This document shows, piece after piece, positions 13,663 to 18,053 of a stretch of 18,073 bases of DNA. The notes below the pieces were generated by a model. That model was given only the letters and a program-made list of their open reading frames with translations, ran no database searches and was not told the origin of the DNA. Both the position numbers and the translations under genes were made by a program. The DNA is from a virus (lineage: Duplodnaviria > Heunggongvirae > Uroviricota > Caudoviricetes), in the IMG/VR virus record IMGVR_UViG_2690316325_000011, positions 1 to 18,073 of that record. One strand, written 5' to 3'. Every line of letters begins with the position of its first letter. Positions within the stretch are counted from its first letter, which is position 1.

Positions 13663-13784
13663 GGACAACATTTCGAGGACAGTTTTCATTAGCGGTCAGC
13701 AGGCGCTAGATACATCGAATTGATGTGCCGCGCGATAAATGTACCTATTCTATCAAGATAAATTACACCGACGCGGCATTAGAA

Positions 13785-14357
13785 TTACAGCTCAGATTGA
13801 GTTTGGCGCTTCTCTACAGGATGATAACGATAAATCGTCGATACACCGATATCGTAAATAATTGCCAACTGTTTCCTGCTGTAGCCATTTTCGATCAACC
13901 TCGCTATTTGCTCATGTTGTTCTTTTGTCAACTTCGGGCGACGTCCGCCAATGCGTCCCTGTTCGCGTGCAGCTGCCAGTCCGGCCAGTGTTCTCTCAAC
14001 AATTAATTCACGTTCCATTTCTGCTAAAGCCCCCATGACGTGAAAAAAGAAACGCCCCATGGGTGTTGATGTGTCAATACTGTCTGTCAGACTACGGAAA
14101 TTAACACCTTTTTCCCGCAACTCCTCTATAAGCGTGATAAGGTGTTTCATACTTCTGCCAAGCCTATCCAGCTTCCAGACAACCAGCGTATCTCCTTCTG
14201 ATAACGTTCTGAGCAGCTTTTTCAAGCCTGGTCTGGCTGACTTTGTTCCGCTTATTTTATCTTCAAAAATCAGTTCACATCCTGCGCAGTTCAGTGCATT
14301 TCTTTGTAAATCTGTGTTTTGGTCATTTGTTGACACACGAATGTAGCCAATTTGCAT
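13785..14357 (-). CDS. Site-specific DNA invertase (Hin/Gin/Cin/Pin/Min family serine recombinase)
   Basis: 190 aa from ATG at 14357 (AAGAGG about 9 nt upstream; the track's 14366 start is a TTG). Catalytic N-terminus MQIGYIRVSTNDQNTDLQRNAL, core motifs GDTLVVWKLDRLGRS and SPMGRFFFHVMGALAEMERELIVERT, C-terminal HTH (GVSTIYRY). Adjacent to crossover sites. Confidence 0.93.
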   Translation of the reverse strand: MQIGYIRVSTNDQNTDLQRNALNCAGCELIFEDKISGTKSARPGLKKLLRTLSEGDTLVVWKLDRLGRSMKHLITLIEELREKGVNFRSLTDSIDTSTPMGRFFFHVMGALAEMERELIVERTLAGLAAAREQGRIGGRRPKLTKEQHEQIARLIENGYSRKQLAIIYDIGVSTIYRYHPVEKRQTQSEL

Positions 14358-14411
14358 GAAAAACAACCTCTTTGTTTAGTTAAAAATACATCGTTGGTAT
14401 AGGTAGGGATT

Positions 14412-14437
14412 AAGACTAAAACGTTGGTTTGGGGGAA
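14412..14437 (+). other. Crossover site 1 (26-bp Gin/Cin-type inversion site), in the invertase promoter region
   Basis: AAGACTAAAACG-TT-GGTTTGGGGGAA. The right half and TT core are conserved with the other sites; the left half is divergent. Lies 55 to 80 bp upstream of the invertase ATG. Confidence 0.7.
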
Positions 14438-14890
14438 GGCTCTGCACTGCCTGTTGGTGTGCCCGTTCCGTGGCCCTTAGAAACACCGCCAACGGGGTGG
14501 CTGAAATGTAACGGAGCAGCATTTTCTTCTGAAAAGTACCCAAATCTGGCAAAGGCTTACCCTACTAATAAATTGCCTGATTTACGCGGTGAATTTATTC
14601 GTGGCTGGGATGACGGACGTGGTGTGGATGCCGGGCGACAATTATTATCTTCACAGGGGGATGCAATAAGAAATATTGAGGGATTCGCAGATGGCGGGAT
14701 CGGTATGTCTTTTGATGCAATCAGAGGGGCTTTTTACGATGCAGGAACACGATCAGCGAGAATGCCGAATAACACAACTACTATAGACAAAACCGATGAC
14801 CTTGGATTCGACGCCTCTCGTGTCGTGCCAACAGCTAATGAAAACCGTCCTCGTAATATTGCCTTTAATTATATCGTAAGGGCGGCATAA
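14426..14890 (+). CDS. Promoterless tail-fibre C-terminal (receptor-binding tip) cassette A
   Basis: Coding frame begins at the first base right of the site-1 core, with no ATG or SD (track start is TTG). Conserved 5' module GEGSALPVGVPVPWP..TPPTGWLKCNGAAFSSEKYPNLAK.YPT.KLPDLRGEFIRGWDDGRG (tail-collar-like), variable middle, conserved end RPRNIAFNYIVRAA, stop TAA inside the left half of site 2. Confidence 0.8.
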   Translation, partial: GLGEGSALPVGVPVPWPLETPPTGWLKCNGAAFSSEKYPNLAKAYPTNKLPDLRGEFIRGWDDGRGVDAGRQLLSSQGDAIRNIEGFADGGIGMSFDAIRGAFYDAGTRSARMPNNTTTIDKTDDLGFDASRVVPTANENRPRNIAFNYIVRAA

Positions 14891-14909
14891 AAACGTTGGT
14901 TTGGGGGAA
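14884..14909 (+). other. Crossover site 2
   Basis: GGCATAAAAACG-TT-GGTTTGGGGGAA. The left half contains the cassette A stop codon. Confidence 0.75.
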
Positions 14910-15466
14910 GGCTCATCAGCTCAGTAGTGCCACTAACAGCACGTCTGAAGTGCTGGCCGCCACACCGAAAGCTGTCAAGGCTGCATATGACCTGGCTAAC
15001 GGGAAGTATACAGCCCAGGATGCAACCACGACACAAAAAGGGATAGTTCAGCTCAGTAGCGACACCAACAGCACTTCTGAAACATTAGCTGCAACGCCAA
15101 AAGCGGTTAAAGCTGCATACGATCTAGCAGCCGGAAAGGCACCATCCAGTCATACACATCCCTGGAATCAGATCACTGGTGTGCCAACAGCTTCATTGAC
15201 AGCGAAAGGCATCACTCAGCTCAGTAGTGCCACTAACAGCACGTCTGAAGTGCTGGCCGCTACACCGAAAGCTGTCAAGGCTGCATATGATTTGGCTAAT
15301 GGAAAGCAAGCGGCAGACGCTACGCTCACTGCTCTAGCGGCACTAGCTACCGCAGCAGATAAACTCCCTTATTTCACAGGGGTTGATCGTGCCGCGTTAA
15401 CTGCACTGACAAGTGTTGGACGTGCAATTCTTAGTAAGCCCAGTATTCAGAGCGTTCTTAATTACC
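14898..15466 (+). other. Captured fragment of a tail-fibre constant region carrying three tail-fibre repeat units
   Basis: Open frame encoding three copies of QLSS(A/D)TNSTSE(V/T)LAATPKAVKAAYDLA; nucleotide copies at 14917..14990 and 15217..15290 are identical except for one base. It ends ...LNYL at site 3. From site 2 in the cassette frame the reading is GLGEGSSAQ then stop (TAG 14925..14927), so it is not a functional cassette. Confidence 0.6.
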
Positions 15467-15480
15467 TTGGTTTAGGGGAA
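15455..15480 (+). other. Crossover site 3 (constant/variable junction type; most symmetric site)
   Basis: TTCTTAATTACC-TT-GGTTTAGGGGAA. Left half resembles Gin/Cin-family half-sites (TTC.T..A..ACC) and is coding (LNYL) with no stop, unlike sites 2, 4, 5 and 6. Confidence 0.7.
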
Positions 15481-15975
15481 GGCTCGGCGCTGCCCGTTGG
15501 TGTACCTGTTCCATGGCCCTCAGCCACACCACCAACGGGGTGGCTGAAATGTAACGGAGCAGCATTTTCTTCTGAAAAGTACCCAAATCTGGCAAAGGTT
15601 TACCCAACGTTAAAATTACCTGATTTACGCGGTGAGTTTATCCGTGGTTGGGATGATTCGAGAGGGATTGATACAGGGCGTTCATTGCTAAGTGGTCAGA
15701 CTGCAACATTTATTCGTACAGCTTTGCAGGATTATTACGGTGTCGATCTGACTACTAATGTCAAAGTAGGTATCGCTTATGCTACTGCTGATTCTGTTAT
15801 AACTGTTGGAAACCCTGCTAATCCTAAAGCAGGAGATAATAGCGATTATGTTCCAGCATCATCAGATAACTCCATAACAGGCACTCAAAGGACGGCAGAG
15901 GATAATTTTACCGGGGCATGGATATCAATGCGCCCCCGCAACGTTGCTTTTAATTACATCGTAAGGGCAGCATGA
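15469..15975 (+). CDS. Promoterless tail-fibre C-terminal cassette C (3' part of track ORF 14896..15975)
   Basis: Same conserved 5' module and RPRNVAFNYIVRAA end as the other cassettes; distinct variable middle; stop TGA inside the left half of site 4. Confidence 0.8.
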   Translation, partial: GLGEGSALPVGVPVPWPSATPPTGWLKCNGAAFSSEKYPNLAKVYPTLKLPDLRGEFIRGWDDSRGIDTGRSLLSGQTATFIRTALQDYYGVDLTTNVKVGIAYATADSVITVGNPANPKAGDNSDYVPASSDNSITGTQRTAEDNFTGAWISMRPRNVAFNYIVRAA

Positions 15976-15994
15976 AAACGTTGGTTTGGGGGAA
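15969..15994 (+). other. Crossover site 4
   Basis: AGCATGAAAACG-TT-GGTTTGGGGGAA. Confidence 0.75.
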
Positions 15995-16453
15995 GGCTCA
16001 GCATTGCCCGTTGGCGTGCCCGTTCCGTGGCCATCAGCCACACCTCCAACGGGGTGGCTGAAATGCAATGGTGCAGCATTTTCTTCTGAAAAGTACCCAA
16101 ATCTGGCAAAGGTTTACCCCACTAATAAATTGCCGGATCTACGGGGCGAATTTATTCGCGGCTGGGATGACGGGCGGGGGATTGACTCTGGCCGTAATTT
16201 ATTATCTGCACAGAATGATGCAATTCAGAATATTGTTGGTTCTTTCGGGCGTACTCAGCTTTTTAGAGATGTACTTAGTTCAGGGCCATTTAGTCAACAT
16301 GGTCAAGTATTATCTACAGGCCTAAAGGAAACGGAAATTATTGAGGGTTATGGCTCTTATAACTGGACATTCGACGCCTCTCGCTCAGTTCGTACAGCAT
16401 CTGAAACCCGCCCCCGTAATATTGCGTTTAATTATATCGTAAGGGCGGCATAA
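15983..16453 (+). CDS. Promoterless tail-fibre C-terminal cassette D
   Basis: Conserved 5' module, distinct variable middle, conserved RPRNIAFNYIVRAA end, stop TAA inside site 5. Confidence 0.8.
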   Translation, partial: GLGEGSALPVGVPVPWPSATPPTGWLKCNGAAFSSEKYPNLAKVYPTNKLPDLRGEFIRGWDDGRGIDSGRNLLSAQNDAIQNIVGSFGRTQLFRDVLSSGPFSQHGQVLSTGLKETEIIEGYGSYNWTFDASRSVRTASETRPRNIAFNYIVRAA

Positions 16454-16472
16454 AAACGTTGGTTTGGGAGAA
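16447..16472 (+). other. Crossover site 5
   Basis: GGCATAAAAACG-TT-GGTTTGGGAGAA. Confidence 0.75.
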
Positions 16473-16961
16473 GGCTCTGCATTACCTGTTGGTGTCCCTG
16501 TTCCGTGGCCTTCAGCCACTCCGCCAACAGGCTGGCTGAAATGCAACGGTGCAGCATTTTCTTCTGAAAAGTACCCAAATCTGGCAAAGGTTTACCCCAC
16601 TAATAAATTGCCGGATCTACGGGGCGAATTTATTCGCGGCTGGGATGACGGGCGGGGGATTGATCCAGGTCGCTCTATTTTAAGCGAGCAAGGATATGCA
16701 ACGGAGGATCATGCTCACGGATTACCGTCAAAATCAACCGTAGCAACTGACAGCTCAATTAATTTCTACTTTGACGAGGCATGGGCTACTAGTGGTAATA
16801 CGGGAGTTATCAGATGGGGGAACACAAGCGATGCAGGATTGCCAGCCCCTAATTATGGAACTTTTAAAACATATAAACAGTCCGTAGCTAATTTAGGTAC
16901 TGCTGGCTTAGAAACCCGCCCTCGTAATATTGCATTTAATTATATTGTGAGGGCGGATTAA
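16461..16961 (+). CDS. Promoterless tail-fibre C-terminal cassette E
   Basis: Conserved 5' module (near-identical to cassette D over roughly 120 bp), distinct variable middle containing EDHAHG, end RPRNIAFNYIVRAD. Stop lies 5 bp from the convergent tail-fibre assembly gene stop. Confidence 0.8.
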   Translation, partial: GLGEGSALPVGVPVPWPSATPPTGWLKCNGAAFSSEKYPNLAKVYPTNKLPDLRGEFIRGWDDGRGIDPGRSILSEQGYATEDHAHGLPSKSTVATDSSINFYFDEAWATSGNTGVIRWGNTSDAGLPAPNYGTFKTYKQSVANLGTAGLETRPRNIAFNYIVRAD

Positions 16962-16966
16962 TTATA

Positions 16967-17578
16967 TCAACTGGCTGTAGAAAGTTGTTTTTCAGGCCAG
17001 TTGAGATCTGGTGCCGTGGTTAAATCCATCGCGTTCAGCTCGTCTATATAATCTAGCACGGAGTTAAGCTGCGTGGTTTCTGCCTGCGTCAACTTCCGTC
17101 CAGCCCGTAATTTCAACTGAATCAGACTAATGGAATCCATCGCAGTATCAATCAATGACTGACGTTTTGTTTCTGCTGCCTCTACAGCTGCACTATGTTG
17201 AGCCTCAGTATCAACCACCCATTTCTCTCCATCCCATTTGTCGTATGGTGTTAGCGGGGCGATAGTGGTTGTATTTTCCGGATAGTCACCCAACACCGTG
17301 ATTTCTTCGGGATTCCCTGTGTCAATGCTATAGACAGTTTCGCCACGATGATCTGGCACATACTCCCATGAACTTAAATCCTCTGAACGGAGAATCGCAT
17401 AACCTGCTTTATGTGAGCCTGGAGCATCCAAACAAGAATGTGCCGGAATACCAACGCCAACAGCAAGATATTCAGTTGATGCAGAAATATATTCCCGATT
17501 ACCACCATCATAGTTATAAACGATAATGTTTCCTGCCTGTATGGCTATAAGTTCGCTATTTAATATCGCATTATCCAT
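16967..17578 (-). CDS. Tail-fibre assembly protein (Tfa/U-like chaperone)
   Basis: 203 aa; ATG overlaps the cassette F stop (TAATG), so it is translationally coupled. C-terminal region ...LDYIDELNAMDLTTAPDLNWPEKQ is typical of caudoviral tail-fibre assembly proteins as I recall. It is the only such gene in the window. Confidence 0.8.
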   Translation of the reverse strand: MDNAILNSELIAIQAGNIIVYNYDGGNREYISASTEYLAVGVGIPAHSCLDAPGSHKAGYAILRSEDLSSWEYVPDHRGETVYSIDTGNPEEITVLGDYPENTTTIAPLTPYDKWDGEKWVVDTEAQHSAAVEAAETKRQSLIDTAMDSISLIQLKLRAGRKLTQAETTQLNSVLDYIDELNAMDLTTAPDLNWPEKQLSTAS

Positions 17579-18039
17579 TATGCTGCTCTCACAATATAAT
17601 TGAAGGCAATGTTACGTGGGCGGGTTTCATTCCCCCCAGATAACTCCGTTCTGTATTGACTGGTAAATTTACCATTAATCGCTCCTTCTTGGACGGCGTT
17701 ATCTGTCGACAACAGGCTATCCCCCCCTCTGTCATTTGGCACCAATACCGTGTTATCCCACGCGTCCCATGACCGAATATTATGATAATGACTTCCTGTT
17801 AACCACCCCTGTATGCTTAAGATGACCCTTCCCGCATCCACACCTCGCCCATCATCCCAACCACGGATAAACTCACCGCGTAAATCAGGTAATTTTAACG
17901 TTGGGTAAACCTTTGCCAGATTTGGGTACTTTTCAGAAGAAAATGCTGCGCCATTGCATTTCAGCCACCCCGTTGGCGGTGTTTCTAAGGGCCACGGAAC
18001 GGGCACGCCAACGGGCAGTGCAGAGCCTTCCCCCAAACC
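17578..18039 (-). CDS. Tail-fibre C-terminal cassette F (minus-strand array, followed by the assembly gene)
   Basis: Begins at the core of the inverted site 6; conserved 5' module, distinct variable middle, conserved RPRNIAFNYIVRAA end. Its 5' module is a patchwork of A-like and C-like sequence. Confidence 0.8.
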   Translation of the reverse strand, partial: GLGEGSALPVGVPVPWPLETPPTGWLKCNGAAFSSEKYPNLAKVYPTLKLPDLRGEFIRGWDDGRGVDAGRVILSIQGWLTGSHYHNIRSWDAWDNTVLVPNDRGGDSLLSTDNAVQEGAINGKFTSQYRTELSGGNETRPRNIAFNYIVRAA

Positions 18040-18053
18040 AACGTTTTTATGCC
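18028..18053 (-). other. Crossover site 6, inverted relative to sites 1-5
   Basis: Reverse complement reads GGCATAAAAACG-TT-GGTTTGGGGGAA. Its left half contains the stop codon of a further minus-strand cassette. Confidence 0.75.

What the first reader, a model, noticed from the sequence alone, without database searches (positions are those of the whole stretch)
14884..15480. Fragment of a fibre constant region trapped in the cassette array, entered through a dead-end site
Between sites 2 and 3 the sequence encodes three tail-fibre repeat units and ends in ...SVLNYL at site 3, which looks like the 3' end of a constant region rather than a tip cassette. Site 2 joins into the middle of a repeat unit (GGCTCATCAGCTCAGTAG versus GGCATCACTCAGCTCAGTAG at 15208). 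In the cassette frame it hits TAG at 14925..14927, so a fusion at site 2 would give a fibre truncated about 9 residues past the junction. This could be a relic of a past rearrangement or a tipless OFF state.
Basis: partly seen in the sequence, partly recalled or inferred. Interest (0 to 1): 0.6.

Follow-up and report, generated by a model that had tools for sequence, protein, structure and literature searches.

The report
Fibre-gene fragment inside invertible tip array
A 0.57-kb copy of the end of a phage tail-fibre gene sits, back to front, among the swappable fibre-tip cassettes of a P1/p15B-like phage-plasmid; it is most likely a recent leftover of a duplication that adds one non-functional, tipless setting to a well-known host-range switch.

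Summary
The window holds a p15B Min-type multiple-inversion system: a Gin-like serine invertase (13785-14357, minus strand), six 26-bp crossover sites, five intact tip cassettes and one tfa gene. Bases 14916-15466 are not a tip cassette. They are 97-99% identical to the last ~560 bp of the tail-fibre (S) constant region of more than 100 related plasmids, and they end in the S-type half-site that reads in frame into cassette 2.

In 13 of 13 related loci holding one S-type and one invertase-proximal site, the two are inverted. Here they are direct, and the S-type site lies inside the array.

Site 2 (14884-14909) is an intact crossover site. The join to fibre sequence lies 18 nt past its crossover TT, so the invertase did not make it. 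The join is out of frame: a fusion there would read ...NYLGLGEGSSAQ and stop at TAG 14925-14927.

The junction was absent from every collection searched, and the fragment shows no decay, so this is a recent one-off event. The likeliest origin is a ~0.57-kb tandem duplication across the constant/variable boundary, followed by an ordinary inversion. Whether the main S gene is intact lies outside the window.

Modest interest: a rearrangement relic in a known system.

The parts
13785..14357 (-). Serine DNA invertase (Min/Pin/Gin type), 190 aa from its ATG
   Evidence: Pfam Resolvase plus HTH_7. Full-length match to Mu Gin structures 4m6f and 3uj3, E 4e-92. Annotated as a recombinase in relatives.
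14412..14437 (+). Invertase-proximal boundary site (T type, left half AAGACTAAAACG)
   Evidence: The same left half marks the array boundary next to the invertase in relatives.
14438..14890 (+). Tip cassette 1 (intact, Collar domain). Its stop codon lies in the left half of site 2.
   Evidence: 98.9% identical to L002 9001-10215 across the invertase, site and cassette.
14884..14909 (+). Site 2: complete 26-bp crossover site with a cassette-end left half; crossover TT at 14896-14897
   Evidence: Identical 26-mer to site 6 and to internal sites in L002-L004.
14910..14927 (+). Illegitimate junction: cassette-type GGCTCA (14910-14915) joined to fibre-shaft TCAGCTCAGTAG. TAG 14925-14927 falls in the cassette frame.
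   Evidence: GGCTCA is the start of the GGCTCAGCATTGCCC cassette type. The junction is absent from all collections searched.
14916..15466 (+). Copy of the last ~0.55 kb of the S (tail-fibre) constant region: three Phage_fiber_2 repeats plus a unique tail ending SVLNYL
15455..15480 (+). Site 3: S-type crossover site (left half TTCTTAATTACC comes from the constant region). It is direct relative to the T site and lies inside the array.
   Evidence: In 13 of 13 related loci with one S and one T site the two are inverted.
15481..15975 (+). Tip cassette 2, in frame with the fragment
   Evidence: The same fragment-plus-cassette protein is the expressed S C-terminus in L064, and the equivalent stretch is contiguous in the L001 S gene.
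15969..15994 (+). Site 4
15995..16453 (+). Tip cassette 3 (intact)
16447..16472 (+). Site 5
16473..16961 (+). Tip cassette 4 (intact)
16967..17578 (-). Tail-fibre assembly protein (tfa)
   Evidence: Pfam Caudo_TAP, E 3e-30. Annotated as such in relatives.
17578..18027 (-). Tip cassette 5 (intact), upstream of tfa
18028..18053 (-). Site 6, the only inverted site in the window
18054..18073 (-). Last 20 nt of a further minus-strand cassette; the array continues beyond the window
   Evidence: The reverse complement of the window end is identical over 51 nt to 14864-14914.

Best explanation
The locus is a p15B Min-type multiple-inversion switch. A Gin-like serine invertase recombines inverted 26-bp sites. 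This fuses the constant part of the tail-fibre gene S to one of several tip cassettes. In all relatives S lies beyond the right end of the window, on the minus strand.

Bases 14916-15466 are a real, recent, undecayed copy of the last ~0.55 kb of S that has become an internal pseudo-cassette. Its entry (site 2) is an intact crossover site, so the invertase should be able to select it. The join to fibre sequence is an illegitimate one, 18 nt past the crossover point and out of frame. Selecting it would therefore give a fibre that ends ...NYLGLGEGSSAQ, without a Collar or receptor-binding tip. Its exit (site 3) is a second S-type site that reads in frame into cassette 2.

The route I think most likely has two steps:
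1. Unequal exchange or slippage between GGCTCAGC, just past the S junction site, and CACTCAGC at the start of a 300-bp shaft repeat. This tandemly duplicated about 0.57 kb (S 3' end plus site plus 6 nt) and made S terminate early.
2. An ordinary inversion at the first copy of the site restored a functional S and carried the second copy, inverted, to the invertase end of the array.

Shown: the anatomy, the identity of the fragment, the frame, the non-canonical orientation and the uniqueness. Inferred: the duplication route, an intact S outside the window, and the tipless phenotype.
For: - The system is identified by the invertase, six sites, Collar cassettes and tfa and by synteny with about 95-kb P1-like plasmids.
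- The fragment equals the S 3' end of relatives at 97-99% identity. Window 14908-16179 is colinear with the expressed S 3' end plus cassette of L001.
- The 341-aa fragment-plus-cassette product is identical to the S C-terminus in L064.
- S-type and T-type sites are inverted in 13 of 13 relatives but direct here.
- The whole 26-bp site plus cassette-type GGCTCA precedes the fibre sequence, so the join is not at the crossover TT.
- The stop comes after 9 residues.
- The shaft is a 300-bp tandem repeat, 6.3 copies at 99% in L003 and 2-6 copies among relatives. This region therefore changes copy number readily.
- The fragment has no stops, and its unique tail is 100% identical to at least 58 plasmids, so the event is recent.
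- The junction was not found in 72,556 plasmids, 5,426 E. coli genomes, GTDB species representatives, IMG/VR or JGI metagenomes, nor among the best 120 listed hits of the protein-collection search.
- The window sequence is of high quality. Its 639-aa and 995-aa proteins are exact matches to proteins indexed in 528 and 187 blocks of the collection, and all five cassettes are intact.
Against: - The main S gene is outside the window, so the second copy that the duplication route requires was not seen.
- If the assembly is from short reads, two identical 0.57-kb copies would usually break a contig. This one runs straight through, which fits a single copy better.
- The junction has an extra TCA compared with a clean CTCAGC microhomology join.
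- No reads were available, so neither inversion activity nor the site-2 isomer has been observed.
Confidence: 0.65

Rival explanations
1. A single reciprocal illegitimate inversion took place between a point 6 nt into a plus-strand cassette (just past site 2) and a repeat boundary inside S. The S gene has lost its last ~0.57 kb and its crossover site and is fused to the antisense of a cassette. No isomer can then make a complete fibre, and the prophage is adsorption-defective.
For: One event turns a canonical isomer directly into the arrangement seen in the window; this is my reconstruction from the site map. It predicts a single copy of the S 3' end, which fits a contig that runs unbroken through the fragment. 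Defective P1-like plasmids with damaged fibre regions are common (PMC6906374).
Against: It needs two simultaneous non-homologous joins, which from general knowledge is a rarer event class than a tandem duplication. It leaves a dead phage, yet the fragment and all five cassettes are undecayed. The reciprocal junction could not be looked for because it would lie outside the window.
Confidence: 0.15
2. An assembly or base-calling artefact. Either the contig is a chimeric path through a population of array isomers, or two 1-nt deletions were miscalled at 14910-14922.
For: Arrays of this kind are often misassembled. L052 and L053 carry duplicated S regions, L054 and L109 have indel-ridden S genes, and L097 is a palindromic path. 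The junction is a singleton. Against the shaft repeat it differs by exactly two 1-nt gaps.
Against: No isomer produced by legitimate inversion places S sequence after a cassette-end site. The parents share at most 6 nt (CTCAGC) at the join, far too short to mislead an assembler, so reads must carry it (my reasoning). GGCTCA is exactly a cassette-type start, so no sequencing error is needed. The rest of the window shows no indel noise.
Confidence: 0.12
3. A functional module. Either it is a programmed tipless OFF setting of the host-range switch, or, if the true sequence is in frame, it is a shaft-extension cassette that adds about 190 residues between the constant region and the tip.
For: Site 2 is intact. 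The fragment is an open frame that exits in frame into a tip. Restoring the two bases would read LGLGEG-ITQLSS in frame. Natural shafts tolerate 2-6 repeat copies.
Against: It is out of frame as sequenced. No second example was found in any collection, in frame or not. No promoter-like signal exceeds chance. I saw no plausible +1 frameshift signal on reading the sequence. Relatives show no conserved OFF state.
Confidence: 0.05

Closest known systems
Min multiple-inversion system of plasmid p15B (Sandmeier, Iida, Arber and colleagues, 1990-1992; recalled from my own knowledge, papers not held in the library)
   Same: P1-related plasmid backbone. A Pin/Gin-like serine invertase lies next to an array of 26-bp sites. 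A constant 5' fibre gene rich in repeats is fused to alternative 3' tip cassettes, with one tfa inside the array. PMC6906374 reports an invertase about 98.5% identical to p15B Min in another P1-like plasmid.
   Different: As I recall it, the p15B description has a single constant region outside the invertible DNA, and every site leads to a usable 3' part. Here a copy of the constant 3' end with a second S-type site is inside the array, and one site leads to a stop codon.
Two-site tail-fibre switches: P1 Cin/C segment, Mu Gin/G segment, e14 Pin, and E. coli EC958 prophages (PMC4134206)
   Same: The same 26-bp site layout (12 + 2 + 12, central TT). The same S-type junction ...AATTACC TT GGTTTAGGAGAA and distal ...TAAACG TT GGTTTGGGGGAA forms as EC958 Phi2. 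The same Phage_fiber_2 shaft plus Collar tip.
   Different: Those systems have two sites and two tips. This window has at least seven sites and an internal shaft fragment.
Cin recombination at quasi-cix sites (Iida and Hiestand-Nauer 1986 and 1987; cited in PMC4134206)
   Same: It is a known way for a Din invertase to create non-canonical rearrangements that reach into flanking DNA.
   Different: A quasi-site product would carry the target's own sequence immediately after the crossover dinucleotide. Here a perfect right half-site plus 6 cassette nt precede the fibre sequence. The candidate shaft 26-mer CCAACAGCTTCA TT GACAGCGAAAGG matches the right half-site at only about 2-3 of 12 positions (my reading).
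R64/IncI shufflon (Rci tyrosine recombinase, pilV)
   Same: One constant 5' gene and many invertible 3' segments.
   Different: A different recombinase family, different sites and a different target gene. It is an analogy only.

Membership tests
Din-family (Min/Pin/Gin/Cin/Hin) tail-fibre inversion system | Small serine recombinase with a Resolvase catalytic domain and a C-terminal HTH, adjacent to the invertible DNA | tested here: met
   Pfam Resolvase 2e-51 plus HTH_7 4e-15. Full-length match to Gin structures, 4e-92. The gene ends 55 nt from the first site.
Din-family (Min/Pin/Gin/Cin/Hin) tail-fibre inversion system | 26-bp crossover sites: two imperfect 12-bp inverted half-sites around a 2-bp crossover dinucleotide | tested here: met
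   Six sites of the form N12-TT-GGTTTNGGNGAA. The layout and sequences agree with Table 3 of PMC4134206.
Din-family (Min/Pin/Gin/Cin/Hin) tail-fibre inversion system | Sites lie at the constant/variable junction, so inversion makes in-frame fusions | tested here: met
   Five of the six sites in the window and 158 of the 162 readable sites in 61 related loci read GLGEGSALPVGVP... into cassettes of 119-179 codons. Site 2 is the exception.
Din-family (Min/Pin/Gin/Cin/Hin) tail-fibre inversion system | Fis-dependent recombinational enhancer inside the 5' part of the invertase gene | not tested
   No scan for Fis sites or an enhancer was made.
Din-family (Min/Pin/Gin/Cin/Hin) tail-fibre inversion system | Inversion actually occurs (isomers coexist) | not testable with these tools
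   No reads. Indirect support: relatives carry the same cassettes in different orders and orientations.
p15B Min-type multiple inversion array | More than two sites, in both orientations, bounding several tip cassettes | tested here: met
   Five plus-strand sites and one minus-strand site in the window, and the array continues past 18073.
p15B Min-type multiple inversion array | A single constant region outside the array; S-type and invertase-proximal sites inverted to each other | tested here: not met
   13 of 13 relatives meet it. In the window the S-type site (15455) is direct to the T site (14412) and internal.
Tip cassette (variable 3' part of S) | Opens in the cassette frame after the site, carries a Collar domain, and ends with a stop codon | tested here: not met
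   For 14910-15466 the cassette frame stops at 14925-14927. The content is Phage_fiber_2 repeats with no Collar domain. It ends in an S-type half-site with no stop.
Product of invertase action at a quasi-site | Novel joint exactly at the crossover dinucleotide, with the target's own sequence as one half-site | tested here: not met
   The joint lies 18 nt 3' of the TT, and the right half-site is canonical.

The most novel reading that the evidence does not exclude
The internal shaft fragment is a working part of the switch. It would either provide a deliberately tipless (non-adsorbing) setting, or, if two bases were lost in sequencing, act as an extension cassette. In the second case the fibre would be assembled in two tiers (constant region + optional ~190-residue shaft module + tip), varying fibre length as well as tip.
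Probability: 0.05. Interest if true: 0.6.

Novelty: new variant of a known kind. Interest (0 to 1): 0.3.

Why it matters
Multi-cassette fibre switches must have grown from two-site systems by duplicating a site together with flanking DNA. Intermediates of that process are rarely seen. This window appears to catch one: a duplication that crossed the constant/variable boundary, created an extra usable crossover site, and was then carried into the array by the invertase itself.

It also shows that such arrays can hold null settings, which matters when predicting host range from sequence. For annotation, the 359-codon ORF at 14896-15975 should not be called a tail-fibre gene or a tip cassette. Beyond that, this is a one-off rearrangement in a well-understood system.

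Tried and rejected
Attempts to find the source molecule or a second example of the junction:
- BLAST of the junction against plasmids and complete E. coli genomes gave no colinear hit.
- Exact and relaxed pattern scans of GTDB genomes, IMG/VR and JGI metagenomes gave only chance matches in unrelated organisms, none next to a crossover site.
- Exact-protein look-ups of the 359-aa ORF (with L or M start) found nothing. The 341-aa form found only L064, an ordinary S gene with an N gap and 15 synonymous differences, so a different strain.
- DarA (639 aa) and DdrB (995 aa) look-ups returned many other plasmids but not this contig.
- The large protein search gave no hit among the best 120 listed that covers the junction-derived N-terminus. 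P0012 (459 aa) turned out to be an in-place S gene split by frameshifts.

Records with two copies of the S 3' end (NZ_CP027133, NZ_CP102949) look like assembly duplications of the whole R-S region. NZ_CP021203 is an IS26 interruption.

Ideas rejected:
- Origin by invertase action at a quasi-site, because the joint is not at the crossover.
- Capture from a phage that naturally has a site followed by a shaft repeat, because none was found.
- Independent expression, because promoter-like matches do not exceed shuffles and no start codon follows the SD-like GGGGGAAGG (reading).
- Programmed +1 frameshifting at CAG-TAG, because no re-pairing is possible (my reasoning).

The classical p15B papers are not in the library.

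Full report
**What the window is**

ORF listing and direct reading show:
- a 190-aa serine recombinase on the minus strand (13785-14357);
- a run of short plus-strand ORFs that all begin GLGEGSALPVGVPVPWP...;
- a minus-strand tfa gene (16967-17578);
- one minus-strand ORF of the same kind (17578-18036).

Pfam gives Resolvase plus HTH_7 for the recombinase, Collar for every short ORF and Caudo_TAP for tfa. The recombinase matches the Mu Gin structures over its full length (E 4e-92).

The region is 93-97% identical, in pieces, to about 95-kb non-mobilisable E. coli plasmids of the P1 type. The rest of the window is P1 backbone: holins, LydB, DarA and DdrB. This is the architecture I recall for the p15B Min system. 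The original papers are not in the library. PMC6906374 mentions Min-like invertases in P1-like plasmids.

**The sites**

A pattern scan finds six 26-bp sites of the form N12-TT-GGTTTNGGNGAA:

| Site | Coordinates | Strand | Left-half type |
|---|---|---|---|
| 1 | 14412-14437 | + | T (invertase-proximal) |
| 2 | 14884-14909 | + | cassette end |
| 3 | 15455-15480 | + | S (from the constant region) |
| 4 | 15969-15994 | + | cassette end |
| 5 | 16447-16472 | + | cassette end |
| 6 | 18028-18053 | - | cassette end |

The layout and the sequences agree with the crossover sites tabulated for E. coli prophage fibre switches in PMC4134206, including the central TT. Left halves fall into three types:
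- AAGACTAAAACG next to the invertase (T type);
- GGCATAAAAACG or a close variant, which contains a cassette stop codon (internal type);
- TTCTTAATTACC, which is the end of the fibre constant region (S type).

**Checking the observation**

- Frame 14896-15975 is open for 359 codons. It has three Phage_fiber_2 repeats, then ...SIQSVLNYL, then GLGEGSALP... and a Collar domain.
- At site 2 the cassette frame reads GLGEGSSAQ and stops at TAG 14925-14927.
- GGCTCATCAGCTCAGTAG (14910) is 2 nt shorter than GGCATCACTCAGCTCAGTAG (15208).

**What the fragment is**

BLAST of 14780-15600 hits 212 plasmids. In most of them the match starts at window base 14908, runs through site 3 into the cassette, is 97-99% identical, and lies under an annotated tail-fibre protein.

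In L003 and L004 the matching stretch is the last ~560 bp of a 950-1060-aa S gene. It is followed by the identical S-type site and a tip cassette. Window 14908-16179 is colinear with the expressed S 3' end, cassette and next site of L001 (96%). The 341-residue product of fragment plus cassette 2 is identical to the S C-terminus on a metagenome scaffold (L064), which differs at 15 synonymous positions and is therefore another strain. The non-repetitive tail (15296-15470) is 100% identical in at least 58 plasmids.

The fragment is therefore a pristine copy of the constant-region 3' end.

**Why its position is abnormal**

In every relative, S lies on the far side of the array from the invertase and reads towards it. 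In window orientation that places S beyond 18073 on the minus strand.

Legitimate inversions never move the outer half of the S-type site or of the T-type site, so the two must stay inverted relative to each other. That holds in 13 of 13 related loci that contain one of each. In the window the S-type site is direct relative to the T site and lies inside the array, with the fragment on the plus strand. No series of legitimate inversions gives this arrangement.

**The junction**

Site 2 is complete, and its 26 bases are identical to those of site 6 and of internal sites in relatives. After it come GGCTCA and then TCAGCTCAGTAG... GGCTCA is the start of the GGCTCAGCATTGCCC cassette type (site 4 in the window; also in L003, L004, L056 and L059).

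The join therefore lies 18 nt 3' of the crossover TT. A serine invertase cuts only at the central dinucleotide (established knowledge of the family), so Min did not make this joint. The shaft 26-mer in the same register is also a poor site.

The cassette start and the shaft repeat share CTCAGC. The observed joint is that microhomology product plus an extra TCA, or equivalently a blunt GGCTCA|TCAGC join. Alternatively it can be written as an AAGGC-microhomology join with two 1-nt deletions. Only this last reading would once have been in frame (LGLGEG-ITQLSS).

The shaft is a 300-bp tandem repeat (6.3 copies at 99% in L003; 2-6 copies among relatives), so this region changes copy number readily.

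**Uniqueness**

The junction has no colinear match in 72,556 plasmids or 5,426 complete E. coli genomes. It has no exact or relaxed match next to a site in GTDB representatives, IMG/VR or JGI metagenomes. None of the best 120 listed hits of the protein-collection search covers its N-terminus.

Across 61 related loci with 177 sites:
- 158 lead into full cassettes;
- 15 run off the locus;
- 4 lead into frameshifted but otherwise ordinary cassettes;
- none leads into shaft sequence.

Other records with two S 3' ends look like assembly duplications or IS26 events.

**How it most likely arose and works**

*Shown.* The fragment has a competent entry site and an S-type exit site. Entry is out of frame and exit is in frame.

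*Inferred.* If the invertase pairs the real S junction with site 2, S would end nine residues later and lack the Collar and receptor-binding tip. By analogy with P1, Mu and P2 fibres, whose C-terminal part carries specificity and needs Tfa, such particles should not adsorb. Pairing with site 3 or any other plus-strand site would give a normal fibre. The fragment is thus a passenger that adds one null setting.

For the origin I favour two steps.
1. A ~0.57-kb tandem duplication spanned the S 3' end, the junction site and 6 nt of the then-expressed cassette. This would have truncated S.
2. An ordinary inversion at the first site copy restored S and carried the second copy, inverted, next to cassette 1.

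This needs one illegitimate join of a common class and leaves a viable phage.

The main rival is a single reciprocal illegitimate inversion that broke S. It gives the same window and predicts one copy of the fragment. The two differ only outside the window.

An artefact is unlikely. The parents share at most 6 nt (CTCAGC) at the join, far too short to mislead an assembler. No sequencing error is needed to explain GGCTCA. The rest of the window is error-free by the exact-protein criterion. It cannot be excluded without reads, however.

A selected function (an OFF state or an extension module) has no support from conservation, from promoter signals or from any frameshift signal.

**Verdict**

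The system is the known Min/Din kind. The internalised constant-region fragment with a dead-end entry site is an undescribed structural variant, as far as these searches reach. It is most likely a recent, non-adaptive relic. Interest is modest (0.3), mainly as a snapshot of how such arrays gain sites, and as an annotation caveat.

Noticed in passing
L099 (IMGVR_UViG_2654587728_000014) 100-3824: A P2-like prophage carries two complete, convergent tail-fibre genes: 484 aa at 100..1554 (+) and 549 aa at 3824..2175 (-), the latter followed by tfa. Each has an S-type crossover site, at 1076 (+) and 2679 (-). An inversion between the two sites would swap tips between two different shafts.
   Followed up: partly
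window 14382-14411: Just left of the boundary site lies AAAAATACATCG TT GGTATAGGTAGG, which looks like a degenerate extra crossover site between the invertase start and the array. It falls within 13700-14613, a stretch about 98% identical to L001.
   Followed up: no
L003 5511-7401; window 14916-15306: The fibre constant region is built from a 300-bp tandem repeat, 6.3 copies at 99% identity in L003. Copy number varies from about 2 to 6 among close relatives, giving S proteins of 703-1060 aa.
   Followed up: partly
L052 (NZ_CP027133), L053 (NZ_CP102949), L054 3960-4320, L097, L109: Public assemblies of these arrays are often wrong. Examples are inverted or direct duplications of the whole R-S region, indel-ridden S/cassette junctions, S genes split into three ORFs, and a contig that starts 43 nt before one S-type site and ends in a second, inverted one.
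   Followed up: partly
L053 9341, L063 9174, L101 3293, L109 13035: Four of the 162 readable sites in relatives lead into tip cassettes cut short by frameshifts (26-49 codons). Null settings of a more ordinary kind therefore exist elsewhere, unless these are sequencing errors.
   Followed up: no
window 18023-18073 versus 14864-14914: The last 51 nt of the window are an exact inverted copy of the cassette-1 end plus site 2. The window stops 20 nt past site 6, which may mean the source contig broke at this repeat.
   Followed up: partly
L063 (NZ_CP021203.1) 6638-8110: In a 183-kb IncF/P1-like cointegrate, IS26 cuts the S gene just upstream of its last repeats. This leaves a 247-aa remnant of shaft end plus tip next to a resistance region.
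   Followed up: no
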